From NCBI GenBank assembly GCA_965112635.1, contig OZ218778.1, forward strand, positions 544,001-608,000: DNA of 64,000 nt, read 5' to 3'. The notes beneath the pieces are model-generated. The model was not told the DNA's origin. It saw only the letters and a list, made by a program, of their open reading frames with translations, and searched no databases. The position numbers and the translations under genes were made by a program. This stretch comes from an uncultured bacterium (lineage in GTDB: Bacteria > Oederibacteriota > Oederibacteriia > Oederibacteriales > Oederibacteriaceae). Of the stretch, positions 1 through 9,909 are shown piece after piece (the first letter of the stretch is position 1; each line of letters starts with the position of its first letter).

Positions 1-3000
1 CCACAGCCTGGGGTTCATGCCGGACAAGGCCAGGGATTTTTCCAGCCACAAGAGGGCCTGTTCCATCTGGCCCGTCTTGAAATACAGCTCGACCAGTCCC
101 ACGTGAGGGGCCAGTAAAGCCGGGGCGATCTTCAAGGCTTTTTTGTAGGACTCCATGGCGTTCCCGACGGCGCCCTGCTCAACCTGGTACTGGGCCATCT
201 GGGTGTAAGCTTCGGCGTTCTCGGGTCCCAAAGCCACGGCCTTGGCAAAAGACTCCCGGGCGTACCCGTCCAGTCCCTGCTTTTGGTAGTACATCCCCAG
301 CCAGAAATAGGCTTTGCCCTCTTTGGGGAAACGGCTGAGCAGTTTTTTCCAGACCACGCTCGCCTGCTTCTCCTGTTTGTTGTCCCACAGGGCCTGGCCG
401 AGCTGGTAATAGTATTCCACGCGGTCGGGATCTCCCTTGACCGCCTTTTCCCATTCGTGGATGGCCTCACCGCGCCGTCCCTTGGCGCCAAAATGCTCCG
501 CCAGCTTCACGTGGGCCGGGCTGTAGTCGGGGTCCAGGGTGCAGCAGGTCTTGTAGCTGGCCACGGCTTTTTCTTCCTTGCCCATGGCCGACAGGATCTG
601 CCCCAGGCCGTAATAGATCTCCGTCTCTTTTTCAGGCGAGTGCTGCTTGGCCTTTTCGTAGGCCTCCAGGGCCAGCTCCCAGTAAGCGCTGGCCTGGCTG
701 GCTCTAGCCAGCGAGAGGGCCAGCTCCGGCTGGCCGGGGTCGATCTCAAAAGCCTTGCGCAGGGACACCACCGCCTCTTTGGGCTTGTTCTGCTGGAGCT
801 GGATCCGGCCTGTCTCGTAGATGGCCGGGGCATAGTCCGGTTTCAGGGCCAGCGCCTTGGCCAGGCTGTCCAGGGCCTTGTCAGGCTCGGACTTTTTGGC
901 CAGGACACGGGCCAGTTCCAGATGCCCTTCCAGCCACTGCGGCTGGTTTTGCACGGCGCGCATCAGGCAGGACAAAGCCTCTTCCAGATGCCCCCGTCCG
1001 GCAAAGCTGCGGCCGAGATAGAGGTTGGCCTGCGCCTGTCCGGGATCCAGTCTCAGGATCCGGGACCAGCAAAGGTGCGCCTGCTCAGGCTGTTCCAGGC
1101 CCTCAAACGCCAGGCCTTGCCCGAGGTTGGCTTCGATGTCTTCGGGTTTGTCTTTTAGAATCTCTTGGTAGGCCTGTTGGGCCTCGGCCCACCGTTTGAG
1201 CCCCAGCAAAGATTCTGCCAGCTGCCTCTGGCCTTCCACGAGGCCGGGCTGGTTTTCCAGCGCCTTTTTCCAGCACCGGATGCTTTCGGCCCAGTCTTTT
1301 TGTTTGAAGGCGGCTCTGGCCATGCCTATGAGGCACTCCTGCTCCGCCTGGTTCAAACGCAGGGCCCTTTTGTAGTAGGCATAGGCTTTGGCCGGCTGTT
1401 CCAGTTCCGCGGCCAGATGTGCGGTCTTGAAGCTCAGGACCCCGTGGGACGGGGCCAGTTCCAAAGCGTTTTCCCAGGCTTTAAGACCGTCCTGCTTCTG
1501 TCCTTCCCTGAGGTGCAACCTGCCCAGACCTTCCCAGGCCAGGGTGTCCTTGGGGTCCAGCTTGACCGATTCCTGCCAGAACTTGAGCGCTGTCTGGGTC
1601 TGGCCCAGCTGCTCGTGCACCTTGCCCAGCTCGTCCAGGATGGTCTTGCTCTGCCGGTCCAGGTCCAGGGCTTTTTCCAGGTACGAACGGCTGCGGTCCC
1701 ACTCTTGCTTTTTGGCGTGGTAAAAACCCAGCTCCGCGTAGGCCGGCTGGAGCTTGGGGTCAAGCTGGATGGCTGTCTGCCATTCGTTGACCGCCAGGTT
1801 GATCCGGTCCTGCTTTTGGCTGATAAGACCGAGCTCGTAGTGGGCCAGGGCCAGCACGGGCTGGGGCGCGTCCCCGCTCTGCAGGGCTTTTTCCAGGCAG
1901 GGCTGGGCTTTCTTGTATTCCCCTTGTTTCAGGTAAAGCCGTCCCAAAAGTTCCTGGGCCTCGGCCAGTCCCGGCAGCAGGCGCAGGACCTTTAGAAGAT
2001 AGGCGATGGAATCGCCCCATTCCTTTTTCTCAAAACTCATCTTGGCCAGTTGCAGCAGGGCCGTCCCGTTCTTGGGATCATACTCCAGCGACTTTTCGTA
2101 AGCGTGGTGCGCATCCCCGGTCCGGCCCTGGATCATGGCCAGTTCCGCCAGGTTGACCCAGACCCGGGCGTGCCGCGGGTTGAGCTTCAAAGCTTTTTTG
2201 AAATAGTCCATGGCCAGGACCAGGGCGTCCTGGGGCAGGTCCGGCGTGGGAGAACTCTTCCTGGCGAGCACCCCGAGGTGATAAAAGACTTCGGCGTTCT
2301 TGGGATGGACGCGGGACGCCTTTTCCAGCATCTCCCTGGCTTCGGGCAATCGGCCGGTGTCCGCCAGGGCCTGGGCCAGCCCGAAAAGGGACTCCAGGTT
2401 TTCCGGTCTGAGGCTCAAGGCGTGGCGGAACGCTTCCTCCGCCCCGCGGCTGTCTCCGATGGCCAGGCAGGATTTGCCCAGGCCTTCATAGGTCTCGGAC
2501 AGATTCTTGAAACTGCTGGTCGCGCTGCGCGGTACCCGTCCCACGATTCTGCGGAACATCTCCACGGCTTTGTAGGGGTAACCCAGGCGGCTGTAAATCT
2601 GGCCCAGTCTAAAACACACGGACAGGTAATTCTCGTTCTCGGGGATTAGGCATTTCTCATAAAGGCCGGCTGCCCGTTCCAGCTTTTTCTCCTCTTCATA
2701 GAGCCCGGCCAGCTCCAGGCAGGTTTCCCAGTGCTGCGGATTGAGGCTCAATCCTTTTTCCCATTCCTGGGCCGCCTTGTCCAAAGCTTTGGTCTTGGCA
2801 TAGGCCTGGCCAAGCCAGTAATGGAACATCTCGGGTGGCACGAGCACTTCGGGCTGGGCCAGCACGACTTTGAATTCCTTCAGGGCTTTTTGGGGCTGAT
2901 CGGTCTTGAGGTACAGCTGTCCCAGCAGGCGGTGGGCCTTGGGAATGTTGTCGTCTTGTTGCAAAGCCTCCAGCAGAACCTTCTCGGTTTCGGCCAGCTC

Positions 3001-6000
3001 TCCCCTTAAAAGCTGCATTTCCGCCAGCCCCAGTCTTGCTCTGAGGTCGTGGGGGTCCAGGGCCAGCGCCTCCTGGAAGGAGACCGAGGCTTCCCTGGGA
3101 AGGCCTAAGAGCATTTGGGCCTGTCCCCGTCCCACCAGGGCTCCGGCGACCTTTTCCTTGTCCAGGGCGCGGTTGAACCAGCCCAAGGCCTCGGCCGGTT
3201 TGCCCAAAAAGACCAGGGCTTCGCCCATGCCTGACAAAGCGGCCACGTCATACGGGGAGGATTCCAAAACTTTTTCATAAAGCTGGATGGCCTGGGGGTA
3301 TTCCGCCAGGTTGGCGCAGGCTTTGGCCAGCTCCAGCATGGTCGGGCGGTCCAGGGCCGCGCCGGTCATGGCCTGCGAGAGCGACTCGCGGCAGGCCTGC
3401 CACTGTCCCTGCTGGAAATAGACCTTGCCGATGGCCCTGTGGACCTGGGCATTCCCAGGGTCCAGGGCCAGCGCCAGCTCGTATTGGGCCAGGGCTTCCG
3501 GCCACTGGCGCCGGTTAAAGAACAGATGCCCCAGTTCGGTGCGGGCCGCGGCCTGGTGCTTGGCCGTGGCTTTGGCCGGGCCGGACTTGAGCACCCGTTC
3601 GTAAAATTCCCTGGCCTCGTCCGGCTGCCCCTGGGCCTTCAAGGCCTGGCCCATGCCTAAAAGCGCTTCGGGCTGGAACGGGTCGCGCCGGAGGATATCG
3701 GCGAAGGCCTGCCTGGCTTTGTTCCACAGTTCCAGATGCAGGGCGGTGTGGCCGATGAGGACGGAGATCTCGTCGTCGGGTCTGAGCTCATAGGCCCTTT
3801 CCAGGATAGGCAGGGCCCGGGAAAATTCCTTTTTATAGATAAGATAGCGGCCGTATCCCCACTGGGCCTCCCCGCTGTCCGGGTCTACCTGCACGGCCCG
3901 TTCATACTCGGTCCCGGCGGTCTCCAGTTTTTCCTGTTTGGTGTAGAAGCGGGCAAGCCCCAGGGTGGCGTCGAGGTTGAACCGGTCCCTCTGCAGCACC
4001 TCTTCCCAGACCTGCTGGCAGGTGTCCACGCCCATCTTTTCGTAGGCATGGCCCAGGGTCACCAGGGCGGGAACATGGTCGGGCTTGATCCTCAAACTTT
4101 CCTTGAGAGCCTCGCTGGATTTCTGGTAAGCGGCTTGCCGGAAATAGAGCATCCCCAGGTTCCGCCAGGCTTCAGCGTGCTGGGGCAGCCTCTTGACGGT
4201 CTGTTCCAGGCTGCGGATGGCTTCGTGGACCACGCCCTGGCGCATGAACTCCATGGCCAGCTCAAAGTAAGCGTCTCCGTTTTCCGGGTCGCCCTCGATG
4301 CAGCGCATGAAGGCGGCCATGGCCTCGGAGCCGGCGTTCTGTTCTTTATAGGCCAGTCCCAAAAGGAAGTAGGCCTGCGGGTCGCGGGGGTTTAACTGCA
4401 GGGCCCTCTTGAGGCTTTCCAAAGCCTCTCGCACCTGCCCGGCTTTGAGCAGGGCAAAGCCGAGCTCCCTCTGGTAGGCGGCTTCCTCGGGCTTGAGGTC
4501 GACCGCGTGCTTGAGGGCCCGGGCCGCTTCCGCATAATCGCCTTTTTTGAGGTAGACCTCGTATAGGCTCAAGAATCCCTGTTCCTGCTCCGGCTTTTTG
4601 TCCACCGCCTGCTTTAACAGTTCCTGGGCCCGCTCCAGGTCGTTCCTTTGAACGCAGACAAAGGCCAGTTTGCGCAGGGCATTATAAAGGTCGGGCAGGT
4701 CCTTGGCTCCGGCAGCCTGGGCGTCCGTGATGCTTTGCAAAACTCGGTCCCAGTAATAGGCGGCCTGGTCCCAGTTCCGCCTGGCCAGGGAAAGTTCGCC
4801 CAGTTTTTCCATGATCCGGGCCTGGTCCGGAGCCAGTTCCAGGCTGGCGTGGTACATCTGCCAGGCTTCTTCGAGGTAGCCCAGCCTTTCCAAAGTTTCC
4901 GCGTAGGCGGTCTTGTAGGAGACCTCCCGGGATTCCAGTTCCACGGCCTTTTTCAGGCACGGCTCCGCGCTCTCTTCGCTGTGCATGGCCTGGTAAGCGC
5001 AGCCCATCTTGTAGTGGGCCAGGGCCAGATCCGGGTTGAGGAACAGGGCGTGTTGCAGCAAAGGCAGGGATTCTCCCCACTTTTCTTCCTTTTGCTCCAA
5101 AAGGCCGAGCAGCAGGTAAGCGTAGGGCTGCTGCTCTTCCCTCTGCAGGCTTTCCTGGATGTAGCTGCGCGCCTTCTCCCCCTCACCCTTGTCCATGTGG
5201 ATCTTGCCCAGCTGGAACAGGACCTCGGCGTCCGCGGCCTGCAGGCTGATGACCCTCTCCAGGAGTTCCGCGGCCTTGTCATTTTTTTCCGCGCGGACCA
5301 GGAGCAGGGCGTACTCTTTGAGGACTTGGGGCTGTTCGGGGTTGAGCTCGGCGGCTTTTTCAAAAGCGTCCAAAGTCTGTTTAAAGGTTCCGCTCTGTTT
5401 GAGAAGCTGCGCTTTGTGCCAGGCCGCCCCGCTATGGCGCACCTGGACCTGCAGGGCTTTTTGGAACGATTCCAGTGCTTCCTTGTAGGCGCTCCGCTCC
5501 TCATAGAGCAGGCCCAGCTGGTAGGACGGCTCCGGGTCGTGGGGGAGCAGGGTGACGGCTTTTTTCAAACAGCTCTCAGCCTGGTGCGCGTCCCTGATCT
5601 CATGGTAAGCCAGGCCCATCTGGAGAAAGGCCTTGCCGTCGTCCGCGTCAAGCCGCACGACCTCGTTCCACTGTTCCAACGCCTCCCGCCACTGCAACCT
5701 CTTCCCGTAGACCAGGGCCAGCTGGGACCGGTACTCCGCGTTCTTCAGGTCCAGCTGCACGGCCTGCTTGAGCTGCAGGCTGGCTTCGGTGTGCATGCCG
5801 CGGCTCGTGTAAAGCATGCCCAGGTTGAAATGGCCCAGGGCGTGCCCGGGCGCCAAATTGAGGGCGTGGTGATAATACTGCATAGCCTTATTGAAGTCGT
5901 TCTTCTTGGCCAGCACCCCGGCCAGGCCCAAAAGCGCCTCCACGTGGTCGGGGTTGCCCAGGAGCACCTCCTGGTACATCTCCAGGGATTTATCCAGGAT

Positions 6001-7881
6001 GCCTTTTTTCAAATAGGCCTGGGCCAGGCCGCAGCGGGCCTCGAGATCCTTGGGCAAGCCTTCCAAAATCTTTTTCCAGACCAGGATAGCCCGGTCCGCC
6101 AGGTTCTTGCTGTTGAGGGTATGCCCCATCCCGGTCTGGGCCGCCAGGCTCTGCGGATCCAGTTCCAGCGTCAGGCGGTACTCGTGCATGGCCTCGTCCA
6201 GGAGTCCGCGTTTGCGGTAAAGGCTCCCCAGCCCGCAATGGGCCGCGAGGTTTTCCTGGTCCACGTCCAGGGCGCGGCCGAACTCTCTGACCGCCCCCTC
6301 GTCGTCGTCCTTGATGAGGCAGATCTGGCCCAAGCCAGCGGAGGCATCGGCCGAAGGCCTCTTTTGCACTATTCGTTGGTAAATGGCCCTGGCCCCCTCC
6401 AGATTGCCTTGTGAAATAAGGACTTCCGCTTCAGCCAGCTCAGCGGCCTGGTTAAAGGGGTCGGCCTGGCTGGCCTGGTGGAAACAGTTGGCGGCTTCGT
6501 CCAACTTACCCTTCTCACGGTAAAGGATGCCCATGTTGAAATAGGCCTTGCTGTAGGAAGAGTCGACCTCCACGGCGCGCTTGAAATATTCCAGCGCCTC
6601 ATCGATCTGGCCAAGCGCGTAATAGGACACACCGATGCGGTAGGGCGCTTCGGCCTGCAGGGGGTCGATCTCCAGGGCCTCCTGGAACTCGGCCAGCGCC
6701 TCCTCGTAACGGCCCTGCTTGTTGTAGCAATGTCCCAGTCCGCAGTAGGCCCTCACCAGGGTCGGGTTGATCTCGATGGCTTTTTCTAGCGCGGCGACCG
6801 CCTTGTCGAACTGGCTCTTCTCGGTATAGGCCTCGCCCAGGTCGCTGTAGGCATCTCCCTGGTTGGCATTCAAGGTCAGGGCTTTTTTCAAAACCTGGAT
6901 GGCCAGGTCCAGCTGGCCGCTCTTGCGCAGGGCGTTGCCCAGGTAAGCCTGCGCCTGGGCGTTCTCCGGCGCGATCTCGACGGCTTTTTTGAACTCGTTG
7001 ACGGCTTTGGACAGGAAACTTTTTTTCTCAAAGGTGAGCCCGAGGTTGAGGCGCGGCTCGACGAAATGGGCATCGCAGTTCACGGCCTTTTTCCATTCCG
7101 TGATGGCCTTGCGGACCAGCCCCTGCTGGCTCCAATACAGCCCGAGGTTGTTATGCGCCCCGGCGAAATCCGGATCGAGCTCCAGCGCCCTCTGGAACTC
7201 CTTGTGGGCCTCTTCAAACTCTCCCCGGTCCGCGAGCATCTCGCCTAGGAGGTTGTGGGGCGCCGCCTGGTCATGGGTGAGCTTGACCGCTTTCCTGCAG
7301 GCGTTCAGGGCCTTCTCCGCCTGGTTCTGCAGGCGGCAGGACTGGGCCAGGTTGAAATAGGCGCTGCCGTTGTCCGGCTCCAGCCTCACGACCTCTTCCC
7401 ATTCCGCGGCCTCTTCGTTGTAATGACCGTGCTCACCGTAGGCCACGGCCAGGTTGAAGTGAGCCTTGGCGTGGTCGGGGTCCAGCTCCAAAACCTTCCG
7501 CCACTCTCTCAACGCGGTCTCATAATTTTCCTGGGTGTAGTGGAGGACTCCGAGGAGATAATGGGCTTGCACATGGGCTGGGTCGATCTGCAGGGCTTTT
7601 TCGTAATTGAGCTGGGCGTCCTCATAGGCTTGTTCGGCGAAATCCACCTGGCCCTGGCCCAAACGGGCCTCCACGAAGTTCGGCTCCAGCTTGAGGGCCT
7701 GGCTGAAGGCGTCCCGGGCGTTGACAAAATCCTTCAGCCCCAGGTAAGCCTGCCCCAGTTGTTCGTAGGGCTCGGCCCGGTATGGCCTGGCCTGGATCTC
7801 TTTTTTCCAAACTCCAACCGCTAGTTCAGGAGGCAGCTTGGAATTGGCTTTTTGGGATCCCCGGCCTGTGACTTTCGGCAT
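1..7881 (-). CDS. Giant tetratricopeptide-repeat (TPR) protein, at least 2,627 aa; 3' end lies beyond the window start
   Basis: ATG at 7881-7879 preceded by AGAAGGAG RBS. Manual translation begins MPKVTGRGSQKANSKLPPELAVGVWKKEIQARPYRAEPYEQLGQAY and continues as TPR units (e.g. AHFNLAVAY, AHNNLGLYW, AYFNMGILY, KALELDP-like turns) to position 1 (...ALSGMNPRLW). The ORF track lists no stop-terminated ORF in this frame, consistent with an uninterrupted frame. Confidence 0.93.
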   Translation of the reverse strand, partial: MPKVTGRGSQKANSKLPPELAVGVWKKEIQARPYRAEPYEQLGQAYLGLKDFVNARDAFSQALKLEPNFVEARLGQGQVDFAEQAYEDAQLNYEKALQIDPAHVQAHYLLGVLHYTQENYETALREWRKVLELDPDHAKAHFNLAVAYGEHGHYNEEAAEWEEVVRLEPDNGSAYFNLAQSCRLQNQAEKALNACRKAVKLTHDQAAPHNLLGEMLADRGEFEEAHKEFQRALELDPDFAGAHNNLGLYWSQQGLVRKAITEWKKAVNCDAHFVEPRLNLGLTFEKKSFLSKAVNEFKKAVEIAPENAQAQAYLGNALRKSGQLDLAIQVLKKALTLNANQGDAYSDLGEAYTEKSQFDKAVAALEKAIEINPTLVRAYCGLGHCYNKQGRYEEALAEFQEALEIDPLQAEAPYRIGVSYYALGQIDEALEYFKRAVEVDSSYSKAYFNMGILYREKGKLDEAANCFHQASQADPFNQAAELAEAEVLISQGNLEGARAIYQRIVQKRPSADASAGLGQICLIKDDDEGAVREFGRALDVDQENLAAHCGLGSLYRKRGLLDEAMHEYRLTLELDPQSLAAQTGMGHTLNSKNLADRAILVWKKILEGLPKDLEARCGLAQAYLKKGILDKSLEMYQEVLLGNPDHVEALLGLAGVLAKKNDFNKAMQYYHHALNLAPGHALGHFNLGMLYTSRGMHTEASLQLKQAVQLDLKNAEYRSQLALVYGKRLQWREALEQWNEVVRLDADDGKAFLQMGLAYHEIRDAHQAESCLKKAVTLLPHDPEPSYQLGLLYEERSAYKEALESFQKALQVQVRHSGAAWHKAQLLKQSGTFKQTLDAFEKAAELNPEQPQVLKEYALLLVRAEKNDKAAELLERVISLQAADAEVLFQLGKIHMDKGEGEKARSYIQESLQREEQQPYAYLLLGLLEQKEEKWGESLPLLQHALFLNPDLALAHYKMGCAYQAMHSEESAEPCLKKAVELESREVSYKTAYAETLERLGYLEEAWQMYHASLELAPDQARIMEKLGELSLARRNWDQAAYYWDRVLQSITDAQAAGAKDLPDLYNALRKLAFVCVQRNDLERAQELLKQAVDKKPEQEQGFLSLYEVYLKKGDYAEAARALKHAVDLKPEEAAYQRELGFALLKAGQVREALESLKRALQLNPRDPQAYFLLGLAYKEQNAGSEAMAAFMRCIEGDPENGDAYFELAMEFMRQGVVHEAIRSLEQTVKRLPQHAEAWRNLGMLYFRQAAYQKSSEALKESLRIKPDHVPALVTLGHAYEKMGVDTCQQVWEEVLQRDRFNLDATLGLARFYTKQEKLETAGTEYERAVQVDPDSGEAQWGYGRYLIYKKEFSRALPILERAYELRPDDEISVLIGHTALHLELWNKARQAFADILRRDPFQPEALLGMGQALKAQGQPDEAREFYERVLKSGPAKATAKHQAAARTELGHLFFNRRQWPEALAQYELALALDPGNAQVHRAIGKVYFQQGQWQACRESLSQAMTGAALDRPTMLELAKACANLAEYPQAIQLYEKVLESSPYDVAALSGMGEALVFLGKPAEALGWFNRALDKEKVAGALVGRGQAQMLLGLPREASVSFQEALALDPHDLRARLGLAEMQLLRGELAETEKVLLEALQQDDNIPKAHRLLGQLYLKTDQPQKALKEFKVVLAQPEVLVPPEMFHYWLGQAYAKTKALDKAAQEWEKGLSLNPQHWETCLELAGLYEEEKKLERAAGLYEKCLIPENENYLSVCFRLGQIYSRLGYPYKAVEMFRRIVGRVPRSATSSFKNLSETYEGLGKSCLAIGDSRGAEEAFRHALSLRPENLESLFGLAQALADTGRLPEAREMLEKASRVHPKNAEVFYHLGVLARKSSPTPDLPQDALVLAMDYFKKALKLNPRHARVWVNLAELAMIQGRTGDAHHAYEKSLEYDPKNGTALLQLAKMSFEKKEWGDSIAYLLKVLRLLPGLAEAQELLGRLYLKQGEYKKAQPCLEKALQSGDAPQPVLALAHYELGLISQKQDRINLAVNEWQTAIQLDPKLQPAYAELGFYHAKKQEWDRSRSYLEKALDLDRQSKTILDELGKVHEQLGQTQTALKFWQESVKLDPKDTLAWEGLGRLHLREGQKQDGLKAWENALELAPSHGVLSFKTAHLAAELEQPAKAYAYYKRALRLNQAEQECLIGMARAAFKQKDWAESIRCWKKALENQPGLVEGQRQLAESLLGLKRWAEAQQAYQEILKDKPEDIEANLGQGLAFEGLEQPEQAHLCWSRILRLDPGQAQANLYLGRSFAGRGHLEEALSCLMRAVQNQPQWLEGHLELARVLAKKSEPDKALDSLAKALALKPDYAPAIYETGRIQLQQNKPKEAVVSLRKAFEIDPGQPELALSLARASQASAYWELALEAYEKAKQHSPEKETEIYYGLGQILSAMGKEEKAVASYKTCCTLDPDYSPAHVKLAEHFGAKGRRGEAIHEWEKAVKGDPDRVEYYYQLGQALWDNKQEKQASVVWKKLLSRFPKEGKAYFWLGMYYQKQGLDGYARESFAKAVALGPENAEAYTQMAQYQVEQGAVGNAMESYKKALKIAPALLAPHVGLVELYFKTGQMEQALLWLEKSLALSGMNPRLW

Positions 7882-7999
7882 CCAGACTCCTTCTAAAAAG
7901 TTTAAAATTTAGACGAACTGGTCTTTCCCCTGAAGGCCATACTTTCAGGGTTTTTTGCCCAAAAAATGTGTAATACCCTAAAAAGGAACGAATATAGAT

Positions 8000-8028
8000 A
8001 TTTTAAATTATAAATTACGGCTTGTCAA
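8000..8028 (-). promoter_or_regulatory. Sigma70-type promoter for the giant TPR gene
   Basis: Minus strand reads TTGACA-N17-TAAAAT in an AT-rich intergenic region about 120 bp upstream of the ATG. Confidence 0.7.
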
Positions 8029-8182: not shown

Positions 8183-8258
8183 TGGTGGAGCCGACCGGGT
8201 TCGAACCGGTGACCTCTTCCCTGCCGAGGAAGCGTTCTCCCAACTGAACTACGACCCC
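8183..8258 (-). tRNA. tRNA-Ala(GGC)
   Basis: GGGGTCGTAGTTCAGTTGGGAGAACGCTTCCTCGGCAGGGAAGAGGTCACCGGTTCGAACCCGGTCGGCTCCACCA: 76-nt cloverleaf, G3:U70 Ala identity pair, A73, encoded CCA. Confidence 0.93.
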
Positions 8259-8494
8259 ACCTTGAAAGGGCTGGAAAAAACTGGATGGTTTTTTTCAAGA
8301 ACCTACTAAATATATCACAACAACGGGATTTTCAAACTGTTTTCTTCGCCTCAAACATGATGTCCTTTTGTCGCAAAACCCTTAGAAGACCACAACCTTG
8401 CCAAAAGCGGGTCCCGTGGAAGTTTATTTTGTAATATTCGTTTTTCGAGTGTAGAATTGAAAAATTATACCATTCCCTTGAGCACGGAGACTTG

Positions 8495-8893
8495 ATGCGG
8501 CCTGTAAAAATCCCGAGAAAGCTCTACCTTTGTATAGTCATAGCCCTGGGTTTGATCGGTCTATTTGTGGCCCGGCTCCCTTTACTGATGGCCACGAATG
8601 GGGGTATCGCGGACAACCTCGTGGCTTACCCTAACCCCACCGCCGGGCCGGTCCATTTAAACTTCATATCCACGATCAACGGCACCGCCACGCTGACCAT
8701 CTATACCATCATGGCCAAACCGGTCAGGACCTTTTCGCTGGCCGTGACACCCGGGGTCAATGATTTTTACTGGGACGGGACCACGGATGGCCTGACTATC
8801 GTGGCCAGCGGGGTTTATTTCTGGGTGGTTAAAGTGAGCGTAGCCGGCGGAGGCTTTGGCGAGAACTATTCCAAATTAACTGTCATAAGGTGA
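8495..8893 (+). CDS. Small exported protein consisting of a T9SS C-terminal sorting / FlgD Ig-like domain
   Basis: Hydrophobic N-terminal segment, then AYPNP...TLTIYTIMAKPVRT...WDGT...VASGVYF...KLTVIR, the typical CTD/FlgD_ig pattern. Confidence 0.8.
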   Translation: MRPVKIPRKLYLCIVIALGLIGLFVARLPLLMATNGGIADNLVAYPNPTAGPVHLNFISTINGTATLTIYTIMAKPVRTFSLAVTPGVNDFYWDGTTDGLTIVASGVYFWVVKVSVAGGGFGENYSKLTVIR

Positions 8894-9909
8894 CCATGCT
8901 CGGCAGACCATGCGCAGGTATTTCTGACAAGATAAAGTGTATAGGGATTGCGGCCGTTCCGTTCCTGCTGGCCGCCGGTGCCCTGTTCCTGGCCAATCCC
9001 TCCCTGGAGGCCGACCCCGGCCTCAGTTCCATGGAATTCCTGCAGCTGCCCGTGGGAGCGGTGGGCACCGGGATGGCCGAGGCTTACGGCGGCGAAAGTT
9101 CCCTGGAAGCGACAGAGGTCAACCCCTCGGTCCTGGCTAATTATAAAGGCACGGGCCTGCAGGCCACCCATGAGATGTGGCTTTCTGACATCACCAACGA
9201 TACCGTGCTGGGCGCCTTCGAGCTGGGCAACGAAGGCGGAGTCGGGATTTACCTAGGCTACACCAACCTGGGCTACCAGCAAAGCGCTCAGCCCAGCGTC
9301 ATCCCCGGCGCTTACTATACCCTGGGCGATTACTTCAACAACTACGCTTATCTGATGCAGGTCTCTTATGGGAGAAAACTAGGCGATTTCCTTTCTTTGG
9401 GAGCGGGCGTCAAGATAGCCCAGGAAGTTCTCTATTCCGTCTCCAGCATGGCTGTGGCCTTTGATGTGGGCGCTTCCTGGGTCGAAAAAGACCTGTGGAC
9501 CTTTGCCCTGTCCGTCAAGAACATCGGGGCCGCGCCGACTCCTTACCTTTACGACACGTCCCCCCTGCCGCTGCTTATCCGGCTGGGCATGTCGAAGACC
9601 TTCAAGTTTTCCACGGGTTGGACCCAAAATAACAGTTTTAAGCTGGCCATCGACGGCAAGTTTTTCTCCAGCGACGACAAGGTTTTCTGTTTTGGCGGGG
9701 AATACCAGACCGAGTGGGTCAAGGATAATTCCGTGGCTTTAAGGATAGGATACTCTCGTAAAACCATCGACCAGTCCATTTCCAATTTCAATTTCGGGGC
9801 CGGTTGGACGGGGGTTTACAAGGATTTTGCCCTGTCCCTGGACTACGCCCTGACTCCCTTCATGGACTTCGGCAACACCCATCTTTTAACTCTGGGGGTC
9901 CATTACTAG
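8890..9909 (+). CDS. PorV/PorQ-family outer-membrane beta-barrel protein
   Basis: Signal peptide, FLQLPVGAVGTGMAEA and NPSVLA N-terminal motifs, AFDVG, C-terminal DYA...FGNTHLLTLGVHY. Exact start uncertain (GTG 8890 or ATG 8896). Confidence 0.8.
   Translation: MTMLGRPCAGISDKIKCIGIAAVPFLLAAGALFLANPSLEADPGLSSMEFLQLPVGAVGTGMAEAYGGESSLEATEVNPSVLANYKGTGLQATHEMWLSDITNDTVLGAFELGNEGGVGIYLGYTNLGYQQSAQPSVIPGAYYTLGDYFNNYAYLMQVSYGRKLGDFLSLGAGVKIAQEVLYSVSSMAVAFDVGASWVEKDLWTFALSVKNIGAAPTPYLYDTSPLPLLIRLGMSKTFKFSTGWTQNNSFKLAIDGKFFSSDDKVFCFGGEYQTEWVKDNSVALRIGYSRKTIDQSISNFNFGAGWTGVYKDFALSLDYALTPFMDFGNTHLLTLGVHY

What the first reader, a model, noticed from the sequence alone, without database searches (positions are those of the whole stretch)
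1..7881. Giant TPR-only protein (at least 2,627 aa) absent from the ORF track
Seen: one open minus-strand frame from an RBS-preceded ATG at 7881 to the window edge, made almost entirely of divergent TPR units. At 34 aa per unit this gives roughly 70-77 repeats. It has no signal peptide, no enzymatic domain in the visible part, and its own consensus promoter. Known: most bacterial TPR proteins have far fewer repeats. Inference: a very long cytoplasmic alpha-solenoid that could act as a scaffold, ruler or multi-ligand sensor, with any effector domain lying beyond the window.
Basis: partly seen in the sequence, partly recalled or inferred. Interest (0 to 1): 0.7.

Follow-up and report, generated by a model that had tools for sequence, protein, structure and literature searches.

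The report
Giant all-TPR scaffold protein gene
This is a real, intact gene for a 2,861-residue protein built only from about 81 tetratricopeptide repeats, probably a long cytoplasmic docking scaffold co-expressed with two cell-envelope proteins; it is unusual in size but of a known kind.

Summary
Window 1-7881 (minus strand) is one open frame with an ATG, an AAGGAG ribosome site and a TTGACA-17-TAAAAT promoter. The gene ends only 234 codons beyond the window edge, so the whole protein is 2,861 aa (322 kDa). It consists of about 81 contiguous, strongly diverged TPR units, 75 of them in the window. The largest gap between units is 23 aa. It has no signal peptide, no membrane segment and no other domain at either end. 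No orthologue was found in 30 phylum relatives, in the species-representative genomes, in JGI metagenome contigs or among 5.8 billion proteins. The best long hits are generic TPR proteins at 19-33% identity. The gene is followed at 19 nt by a membrane-anchored mini-TPR protein, and then, with overlapping stop and start, by a TsaP-like (secretin-belt) periplasmic protein. In six relatives this pair lies between a pilus-type ATPase::TPR fusion and a Che cluster that holds cytoplasmic TPR proteins; this genome has no CheW. Most likely reading: a giant protein-docking scaffold tied to a type IV pilus or secretin-type machine. The function is inferred, not shown. Interest is moderate to low.

The parts
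1..7881 (-). Coding sequence of the giant TPR protein, residues 1-2627. The gene runs 705 nt beyond the window's left edge to G000:C1:543296 (= L001 9296). The full gene is L001 9296-17881 (-), 2,861 aa plus stop.
   Evidence: Open frame; full length from the genome; TPR families only; 81 units from residue 38 to 2832.
7887..7892 (-). Ribosome-binding site AAGGAG, 5 nt before the ATG at 7881-7879
   Evidence: Read directly from the sequence.
8000..8028 (-). Sigma-70-like promoter: TTGACA (8028-8023), 17-nt spacer, TAAAAT (8005-8000). It implies a 5' untranslated region of about 110 nt.
   Evidence: Consensus scan, 11 of 12 matches. This is a consensus match only, not evidence of use.
7928..7950 (.). 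GC-rich hairpin inside the predicted 5' untranslated region. It reads as a terminator-like site on the + strand; its role is unknown.
   Evidence: No Rfam family matches, and the fold of the leader is not better than shuffles (z -1.14).
8183..8258 (-). tRNA-Ala (GGC), directly upstream of the promoter on the same strand
   Evidence: ARAGORN; Rfam tRNA 58.1 bits.

Best explanation
Shown: the gene is real, intact and native. It encodes a 2,861-aa, 322-kDa protein made of about 81 contiguous, strongly diverged TPR units and nothing else, and it has no export signal. Inferred from established TPR structural knowledge and from its closest solved relatives (consensus-TPR superhelices and the O-GlcNAc-transferase TPR domain): it folds into one or a few long right-handed alpha-superhelices that bind other proteins or extended peptides along their inner face. 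Shown: its stop codon is followed after 19 nt, with a GGGAGGAG ribosome site, by a 141-aa membrane-anchored mini-TPR protein (P0125). That gene's stop overlaps the start of a 360-aa secreted protein (P0124), whose two beta domains match TsaP, the belt around the type IV pilus secretin. Inferred: the three genes form one operon. Shown: in six relatives the same pair lies between a PilB/PilT-type ATPase fused to TPRs and a Che cluster that contains two signal-less TPR proteins. Inferred, as the weakest step: the giant protein is the cytoplasmic docking scaffold of a type IV pilus or secretin-type envelope machine, working much as the TPR-only protein SgmX does in Myxococcus but about six times longer.
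For: Reality and integrity: the frame is open, against 90 stops expected in shuffles. GC3 is 78.7%, close to the neighbouring LeuRS at 77.5% and P0124 at 72.8%. Short contigs from three peat studies and one sediment study are identical to it (X1: 20 of 24 laid records at 99% or more; the listed pieces have 0 differences). No long DNA repeat could cause misassembly: the longest direct-repeat family is 57 nt at 60-72% identity, and Tandem Repeats Finder reports only four short arrays. Architecture: there are 81 units (80 at i-E 0.01 or better), and the largest gaps between units are 23, 18, 17, 15 and 14 aa. Mean pairwise unit identity is 16% and the maximum 50%. A repeat model trained on 3,726 units of the 120 other long hits, with this protein left out, still finds 63 units, rank 1 of 121. 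PDB sequence search: an engineered consensus TPR protein scores E 1.9e-128, and residues 89-518 align colinearly with OGT TPR residues 40-470 at E 1.1e-45. Operon partners: the gene spacing is read. P0125 matches TPR_6 at E 1.1e-6 and gives sub-threshold YbgF/BamD-like hits. The P0124 C-domain has 130 relatives at E 0.001 or better; of the 50 I aligned, 31 match FlgT_C and 23 match LysM. The P0124 model (pLDDT 78.7) best matches the TsaP chain of 6ve2 (E 2.2e-6, probability 1.00, TM 0.59 on the target). Conserved context: 6 of the 6 relatives' loci with the cluster (of 7 relatives' loci fetched; L023 of G004 was not resolved) carry a protein matching the P0124-family profile at E 9e-20 to 5e-41, each preceded by an ORF of about 135 aa with a membrane helix. 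The full domain order ATPase::TPR, pair, CheR, TPR, CheW, TPR, PII, CheC, CheD, CheW, CheY, CheB, CheA was shown by Pfam for one of them, L021. In L019 the gene before the pair is a prismane-family protein and the one after it an HD protein; the other four were compared by ORF sizes only. The SgmX analogy rests on passages read in PMC7668184 ('composed solely of 14 TPRs'; activates type IV pili).
Against: No direct evidence of expression: no RNA run holds the stretch. Both partner proteins face the periplasm, whereas the giant protein has no export signal, so they cannot touch directly; the link rests on gene order alone. In the relatives the pair follows a different TPR-bearing gene, and the gene order differs from that in this genome. 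This genome has no CheW domain, and its ATPase::TPR orthologue sits elsewhere, behind the ribosomal-protein operon, so the relatives' system is not intact here. P0124 itself scores below threshold on FlgT_C (E 0.21) and lacks the LysM domain of TsaP. The single-sequence AlphaFold model of residues 1-1150 was poor (pLDDT 44.5), so the superhelix is inferred from family knowledge, not modelled. Two contig records suggested internal joints (skips of 5,407 and 3,835 nt), but each has only 22 letters on the shorter side, which the tool itself warns is typical of other organisms or repeats. No contig spans the whole gene.
Confidence: 0.5

Rival explanations
1. It is a general-purpose cytoplasmic TPR hub or chaperone-like platform with many unrelated clients. 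Its position next to the TsaP-like pair would then be a by-product of genome rearrangement and carry no functional meaning.
For: TPR arrays are generic binding modules. The units are highly diverse (mean identity 16%), as expected for many different binding surfaces. The locus otherwise holds housekeeping genes: LeuRS, tRNA-Ala, ApbE. Gene order differs from that of the relatives.
Against: The 19-nt spacing, the strong ribosome site and the overlapping stop and start downstream suggest co-transcription. The pair sits inside a cluster with TPR genes in 6 of the 6 relatives' loci that carry the cluster, of 7 fetched.
Confidence: 0.3
2. It is the detached sensor or substrate-binding arm of an enzyme whose catalytic part is encoded elsewhere: an O-GlcNAc-transferase/SPINDLY-like or family-9 glycosyltransferase, a Ser/Thr kinase, or a STAND NTPase.
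For: Many of the best long hits join similar TPR arrays to a glycosyltransferase (PF01075, PF13844), a kinase (PF00069) or AAA_16. Residues 89-518 align with the OGT TPR domain. Asn at the OGT-ladder position occurs in 9 of 81 units, 6 of them within the first 720 residues.
Against: No catalytic domain lies in the protein or in the adjacent genes. The Asn ladder is patchy. No split partner was identified.
Confidence: 0.1
3. It is an exported envelope TPR protein of the PrsT, BcsC, PelB, PgaA or PilW/Tgl type, acting in polysaccharide export or secretin assembly in the periplasm alongside P0125 and P0124.
For: NCBIfam scores exceed the cut-offs for PrsT (1010 against 312 bits), PilW, Tgl and others. 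Both operon partners are periplasmic.
Against: Those scores are sums over 14-22 separate repeat matches. The protein has no signal peptide, lipobox or membrane segment, and only 9 further open codons lie upstream of the ATG (open frame 2,870 aa). It has no beta-barrel or any non-TPR part. The genome has no exosortase.
Confidence: 0.06
4. It is a decaying or functionless repeat expansion that happens still to be open.
For: No orthologue was found. There is no expression evidence.
Against: The frame stays open over 8.6 kb, against about 90 stops expected. Codon-position GC matches that of neighbouring essential genes. The units are old and diverged, yet 80 of 81 still fit the TPR pattern. A good promoter and ribosome site are present.
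Confidence: 0.04

Closest known systems
SgmX of Myxococcus xanthus (TPR-only cytoplasmic activator of type IV pili)
   Same: Both consist solely of TPRs, lack an export signal and are linked to type IV pilus machinery (SgmX: passages read in PMC7668184; here: the operon with a TsaP-like gene).
   Different: SgmX has 14 TPRs; this protein has about 81. No sequence orthology was tested, because no SgmX sequence was available to me. SgmX works with MglA and FrzS, which I did not look for here. The pilus link here rests on gene order only.
Consensus TPR (CTPR) superhelices and the TPR domain of O-GlcNAc transferase (solved structures)
   Same: They are the best sequence matches among solved structures (E 1.9e-128 and 1.1e-45). 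The unit consensus AxxxLGxxYxxxGxxxEAxxxxxKALxLDP is canonical TPR by my recollection of the motif.
   Different: The solved arrays have 3-20 repeats. OGT carries a catalytic domain, and this protein has none. A continuous superhelix over 81 units is not shown. If the recalled CTPR geometry held (about 8 repeats per turn, about 7 nm pitch), the array would be roughly 70 nm long.
Uncharacterised giant TPR proteins in metagenomes (for example P0058, 3,311 aa)
   Same: They are long and TPR-rich, with no named function. P0058 covers 97% of the query at 23% identity and has no stretch over 150 aa without a TPR unit.
   Different: None is an orthologue: identities are 19-33%. Of the 120 best long hits, 119 have a stretch of more than 150 aa without a recognisable TPR unit, and all have fewer units (at most 52, against 63 by the unbiased model). 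Their gene neighbourhoods could not be examined.
PrsT, the XrtA/PEP-CTERM system TPR lipoprotein (TIGR02917)
   Same: It is the highest NCBIfam score (1010 bits).
   Different: The score is the sum of 14 stretches. This protein has no lipoprotein signal, is three times longer, and the genome has no exosortase.
TsaP (type IV pilus secretin-associated protein), for the operon partner P0124
   Same: It has two tandem FlgT-C-like beta domains after a disordered linker and is the best PDB fold match (6ve2 chain O). Its relatives carry FlgT_C (31 of 50) and LysM (23 of 50). The TsaP architecture was read in passages of 10.1101/2020.05.29.123786.
   Different: P0124 has no LysM domain. In its place is a Pro/Thr-rich linker directly after the signal peptide. 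Binding to any of the genome's three secretins was not tested.

Membership tests
TPR repeat superfamily (Pfam TPR clan) | Tandem 34-residue helix-turn-helix units with the canonical small and large residue pattern | tested here: met
   TPR_2 E 1.1e-258, TPR_1 E 1.2e-225 and others. 81 units with consensus AxxxLGxxYxxxGxxxEAxxxxxKALxLDP. The last 334 residues match TPR families only.
PrsT (TIGR02917, XrtA/PEP-CTERM TPR lipoprotein) | N-terminal lipoprotein signal; length about 900 aa | tested here: not met
   The N-terminus MPKVTGRGSQKANSK... has no hydrophobic segment or lipobox. The highest hydropathy mean is 1.29. Length is 2,861 aa.
PrsT (TIGR02917, XrtA/PEP-CTERM TPR lipoprotein) | Occurs in genomes with an XrtA/EpsH exosortase system | tested here: not met
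   PF09721 finds nothing in the 96.9%-complete single-contig genome.
PilW/PilF/Tgl pilotin TPR lipoproteins | Small (about 250 aa) outer-membrane lipoprotein with about 6 TPRs | tested here: not met
   The scores exceed the cut-offs only through 14-19 summed stretches. There is no signal or lipobox, and the protein is 11 times longer.
O-GlcNAc transferase / SPINDLY and TPR-glycosyltransferase fusions | A C-terminal glycosyltransferase catalytic domain after the TPR array | tested here: not met
   No non-TPR family at E 0.01 or better is shown in the last 334 residues. The largest gap between units is 23 aa.
STAND/NLR-type or Ser/Thr-kinase TPR sensors | An N-terminal NTPase or kinase domain before the TPR array | tested here: not met
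   The first TPR unit starts at residue 38. No such family appears among the 25 best of the 44 Pfam families matched.
SgmX-like type IV pilus activators | TPR-only, cytoplasmic | tested here: met
SgmX-like type IV pilus activators | Binds MglA-GTP or FrzS and is needed for pilus extension | not testable with these tools
   Needs experiments. I did not search the genome for MglA or FrzS.
TsaP family (for the partner P0124) | Two tandem FlgT-C-like beta-roll domains | tested here: met
   The fold match to TsaP in 6ve2 has E 2.2e-6. 31 of 50 aligned relatives match FlgT_C. P0124's own FlgT_C match is sub-threshold (E 0.21).
TsaP family (for the partner P0124) | An N-terminal LysM peptidoglycan-binding domain | tested here: not met
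   P0124 has no LysM hit, whereas 23 of 50 relatives have one.

The most novel reading that the evidence does not exclude
This may be the longest uninterrupted canonical TPR array yet seen in a bacterial protein. It would be a single superhelical rod of roughly 70 nm that serves as a cytoplasmic ruler or track for a pilus or secretin-type machine. In a deep-branching lineage that has lost its chemosensory cluster, it may have taken over the role of the several shorter Che-cluster TPR proteins of its relatives.
Probability: 0.1. Interest if true: 0.6.

Novelty: new member of a known kind. Interest (0 to 1): 0.3.

Why it matters
If the protein is made, it is an extreme natural example of a repeat array that protein engineers build only up to about 20 units. 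It would test whether a TPR superhelix stays continuous over some 80 units. Its operon with a TsaP-like protein, together with the conserved cluster of ATPase::TPR, TsaP-like pair, Che genes and TPR genes in relatives, gives a concrete and testable lead on how cytoplasmic TPR scaffolds are wired to pilus or secretin machines outside the model Proteobacteria. There is also a practical point for annotation: summed repeat scores push the protein above the 'equivalog' cut-offs of many unrelated TPR families, so automatic names for such proteins cannot be trusted.

Tried and rejected
The AlphaFold2 single-sequence model of residues 1-1150 had mean pLDDT 44.5 and pTM 0.28.

Expression: no RNA holder is listed for the stretch. 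The reads laid were DNA contigs only, and no contig spans the gene.

Orthologue hunts:
- The species-representative genomes gave 4 loci at 22-26% identity. The two that covered most of the query by tblastn (L010, L013) turned out to be runs of shorter TPR genes, with longest ORFs of 1,051 and 597 aa.
- JGI metagenome contigs gave 3 loci at 24-27% identity.
- Thirty relatives, all only 'same phylum', gave nothing longer than a 1,391-aa open frame.

Naming the phylum from LeuRS failed. The best hit is 72% identical, and the MAG labels disagree (Acidobacteriota, Planctomycetota, Brocadiia, Chitinivibrionales).

The 5' leader matches no Rfam family, and its fold has z -1.14. Net charge per unit shows no 8-unit periodicity, and unit identity shows no higher-order repeat period. 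My self-BLAST for segmental duplications returned no rows after filtering, so I did not rely on it.

Two other G000 hits of the P0124-family profile (at 519,798 and 1,536,693) match only its LysM part, so I dropped them as TsaP-like candidates.

Literature: five full-text searches found no paper on bacterial TPR-only proteins of this size. The giant-gene preprint 10.1101/2023.11.21.568195 (passages read) mentions TPR only as one domain of multi-domain giants. PMC5585712 (passages read) was irrelevant.

I did not run complex prediction, because I make no specific binding claim.
Full report
OBSERVATION. The window's minus strand is open from 7881 to base 1 (2,627 codons, ATG start). The window is G000:C1:544001-608000 of a single-contig genome of 2,876,006 bp. 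Reading on in that genome, the frame stops after another 234 codons. The gene is therefore G000:C1:543296-551881, encoding 2,861 aa, 322,375 Da, pI 6.04. Two hundred shuffles of the gene's bases give a mean of 90 in-frame stops and a minimum of 65. AAGGAG lies 5 nt before the ATG. A TTGACA-17-TAAAAT promoter (11 of 12) lies at window 8028-8000, although the region as a whole has no more promoter-like sites than shuffles give (4 against 3.2). Only 9 further open codons lie upstream of the ATG (open frame 2,870 aa), so no hidden signal peptide is possible.

IS IT AN ARTEFACT? The gene has no long internal DNA repeat. The longest direct-repeat family is 57 nt at 60-72% identity, with spacings in multiples of 102 nt, and Tandem Repeats Finder reports only four short arrays of up to 39 nt. 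A collapse or chimera driven by repeats is therefore unlikely. Short contigs from three peat metagenome studies and one freshwater-sediment study match pieces of the gene without a single difference. One of these runs may be the source sample, and no contig spans the whole gene. Two contig records suggested internal joints, but each has only 22 letters on its shorter side, which the tool flags as typical of other organisms or repeats. Codon-position GC (GC1 66%, GC2 37%, GC3 79%) resembles the adjacent LeuRS (GC3 77.5%) and P0124 (72.8%). The gene thus looks native, even though its overall GC (60.8%) is above the genome mean (51.3%).

ANATOMY. Pfam finds only TPR-type families in the window part (TPR_2 E 1.1e-258) and in the last 334 residues. 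I seeded a repeat model from the first 14 units, which run in perfect 34-residue register, and iterated it on the protein. It finds 81 units from residue 38 to 2832. Eighty of them have i-E 0.01 or better, and 75 lie in the window part. The largest gaps between units are 23, 18, 17, 15 and 14 aa, which leaves no room for another domain. Because that model is self-trained, I built a second one from 3,726 units of the 120 other long hits, leaving this protein out. It still finds 63 units here, the most of the 121 proteins compared. The unit consensus is AxxxLGxxYxxxGxxxEAxxxxxKALxLDP. The units are old and diverged: mean pairwise identity is 16%, the maximum is 50%, and 43 of 3,240 pairs reach 40%. 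I found no higher-order period in unit identity or in net charge. The highest 19-residue hydropathy mean is 1.29, and the N-terminus is basic and polar. With no signal peptide and no membrane segment, the protein is most probably cytoplasmic. Among solved structures, the best sequence matches are engineered consensus-TPR proteins (E 1.9e-128) and the TPR domain of O-GlcNAc transferase, where residues 89-518 align with OGT residues 40-470 (E 1.1e-45). A single-sequence AlphaFold model of residues 1-1150 was all-helical but of low confidence (pLDDT 44.5). The superhelical fold therefore rests on family knowledge.

RELATIVES. A search of 5.8 billion proteins in the length range 1,573-5,007 aa gave 797 hits among 7,999 scored candidates. 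The best 120 have 19-33% identity, and many carry a glycosyltransferase, kinase or AAA_16 domain. The protein's own sequence is not in that collection, although LeuRS and P0124 of the same genome are. Of those 120, only P0058 (3,311 aa, 52 units) lacks a stretch of more than 150 aa without a recognisable TPR unit. All 30 genomes offered as relatives are related only at phylum level. TPR matches occur in all 31 genomes searched, but the longest matching open frame in a relative is 1,391 aa, and the best match is 32% identical over query residues 99-463. Pattern scans of the species-representative genomes and of JGI metagenome contigs found only generic TPR genes at 22-27% identity. Of the two genome loci whose tblastn match covered most of the query, the longest single ORFs are 1,051 and 597 aa. 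No orthologue is therefore known. In so poorly sampled a lineage this cannot be told apart from true lineage specificity. I could not name the phylum.

CONTEXT. Nineteen nucleotides after the stop codon, behind GGGAGGAG, a GTG opens a 141-aa ORF (P0125). It has an N-terminal membrane helix and a TPR_6 match (E 1.1e-6), plus sub-threshold YbgF/BamD-like matches. Its TAA overlaps the ATG of a 360-aa ORF (P0124), which has a signal peptide, a Pro/Thr-rich linker and a beta-rich C-terminal part. A GC-rich hairpin followed by U6 comes next (it is not better than shuffles), and after a gap of about 100 nt comes LeuRS with its own ribosome site. P0124 has no Pfam hit of its own. Its C-terminal 246 residues find 130 relatives at E 0.001 or better among 1.84 billion representatives. 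Of the 50 I aligned, 31 match FlgT_C and 23 match LysM. The AlphaFold model built with that alignment (pLDDT 78.7) best matches the TsaP chain of the PilQ-TsaP complex 6ve2 (E 2.2e-6, probability 1.00); the next hit is far weaker (E 8.3e-4, probability 0.23). The ESM Atlas gave the same lead. According to passages read in 10.1101/2020.05.29.123786, TsaP has a LysM domain, a disordered linker and two FlgT-C-like domains that form a heptameric belt around the type IV pilus secretin. P0124 has the linker and the two domains but no LysM. The genome has three secretins and 11 T2SSE-type ATPase matches, and a 32%-identical paralogue of P0124 at C1:2420532-2421509.

THE SAME PAIR IN RELATIVES. Weak matches to P0124 in three of the 30 relatives (E 2.6e-5 to 9.2e-5) all lie beside the best TPR matches. 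I fetched seven such loci from relatives. Six of them (L019, L020, L021, L022, L024, L025) show one conserved cluster; in the seventh (L023, G004) my ORF filter picked antisense frames and I did not resolve it. A profile built from the P0124-family alignment matches one ORF in each of the six at E 9e-20 to 5e-41. Each of these ORFs is preceded by one of about 135 aa with an N-terminal membrane helix, and four of those give P0125 matches at E 6e-6 to 9e-3 in a small database. In L021 the Pfam order is: T2SSE ATPase fused to TPRs (767 aa), the pair, CheR, a 390-aa TPR protein, CheW, a 739-aa TPR protein, PII, CheC, CheD, CheW, CheY, CheB, CheA. In L019 the gene before the pair is a prismane-family protein and the one after it an HD protein; the remaining four loci I compared by ORF sizes only. 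The two TPR proteins have no signal peptide. The 739-aa protein's best match in G000 is the giant protein, residues 100-837 (29% over 744 aa, E 7.5e-80), but TPR alignments slide, so I do not claim orthology. G000 itself has no CheW domain (the control genomes respond) and no CheA, CheR, CheC or CheD match. Its orthologue of the ATPase::TPR fusion (39% identity over the full length) sits behind the ribosomal-protein operon at 1.70 Mb.

INTERPRETATION. What is shown: an intact native gene for an exceptionally long TPR-only protein without an export signal, packed tightly ahead of two periplasm-facing genes, one of them TsaP-like, with that pair recurring beside TPR and pilus-ATPase genes in relatives. 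What is inferred: a superhelical fold and protein or peptide binding (from established TPR knowledge); co-transcription (from the spacing); and a role as cytoplasmic scaffold of a type IV pilus or secretin-type machine (from gene order). The last step draws on an analogy with SgmX, a protein 'composed solely of 14 TPRs' that activates type IV pili in Myxococcus (PMC7668184, passages read). It is weak: the partners lie on the other side of the membrane, the gene order differs from that of the relatives, and the chemosensory part of the system is missing here. Using recalled CTPR geometry (about 8 repeats per turn, about 7 nm pitch), 81 units would make a rod of roughly 70 nm. This is a back-of-envelope figure, not a result.

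KNOWN FAMILIES. NCBIfam scores exceed the curated cut-offs of PrsT, MamA, PilW, Tgl, LcrH/SycD, GltE, LapB, NlpI and others. Each of those scores is a sum over many repeat stretches, and the defining features of these families (small size, lipoprotein signal, an exosortase system) are not met. The protein belongs to the TPR superfamily and to no narrower described family that I could test.

VERDICT. The genome holds six still longer ORFs, so giant genes are a habit of this organism. The most useful outcome is the testable link between large cytoplasmic TPR proteins and a TsaP-like envelope pair.

Noticed in passing
G000:C1:29359-80156 (-), 1817782-1829004 (+), 1840236-1853780 (+), 2639993-2658178 (-); all outside the window: The 2.88-Mb genome has six ORFs longer than the TPR gene: 8,344, 6,061, 5,587, 4,514, 3,740 and 3,183 aa. 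Three of them lie head to tail. Several of their N-termini have hydrophobic, signal- or membrane-like starts.
   Followed up: no
L021 (G020:C1:543000-561000) and L019, L020, L022, L024, L025: Six relatives share a cluster. In L021 it runs: T2SSE ATPase::TPR fusion, a membrane protein of about 135 aa, a TsaP-like protein, CheR, TPR, CheW, TPR, PII, CheC, CheD, CheW, CheY, CheB, CheA (Pfam for L021 and part of L019 only). This looks like a chemosensory system with built-in cytoplasmic TPR proteins and a pilus-type ATPase. The window's genome has no CheW domain at all.
   Followed up: partly
L001 7772-9276 (-), i.e. 724-2,228 nt beyond the window's left edge: Two genes lie directly downstream of the giant gene. 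P0125 (141 aa) is a membrane-anchored mini-TPR protein. P0124 (360 aa) is a TsaP-like protein without LysM, and its start overlaps P0125's stop. P0124 has a 32%-identical paralogue at G000:C1:2420532-2421509.
   Followed up: yes
window 1-7881 (the protein as a whole): The exact 2,861-aa sequence is absent from the 15-billion-protein collection, and no near-identical long entry was returned, although neighbouring genes of the same genome are present. The public gene calls for this genome may lack the gene or split it.
   Followed up: partly
window 1-7881 (the protein as a whole): Summed repeat matches push the protein above the curated 'equivalog' cut-offs of many unrelated TPR families (PrsT, MamA, PilW, Tgl, LcrH, GltE, LapB, NlpI), which is a hazard for automatic naming.
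   Followed up: yes
window 8492-8893 (+) and 8890-9909 (+): Two plus-strand ORFs of 133 and 339 aa have no Pfam match. They diverge from the tRNA-Ala and giant-gene promoter region.
   Followed up: no
window 7928-7950: A GC-rich hairpin in the giant gene's predicted 5' leader reads as a terminator-like site on the opposite (+) strand, where no gene ends.
   Followed up: partly
G000:C1:1699453-1701750 (+): The 765-aa T2SSE ATPase::TPR fusion lies directly after the SecY-Adk-Map-S4-RpoA-L17 ribosomal operon, an unusual place for a pilus-type ATPase. An earlier search flagged one TAA inside its 765-aa open frame, but my ORF call gives an intact 765-aa protein.
   Followed up: partly
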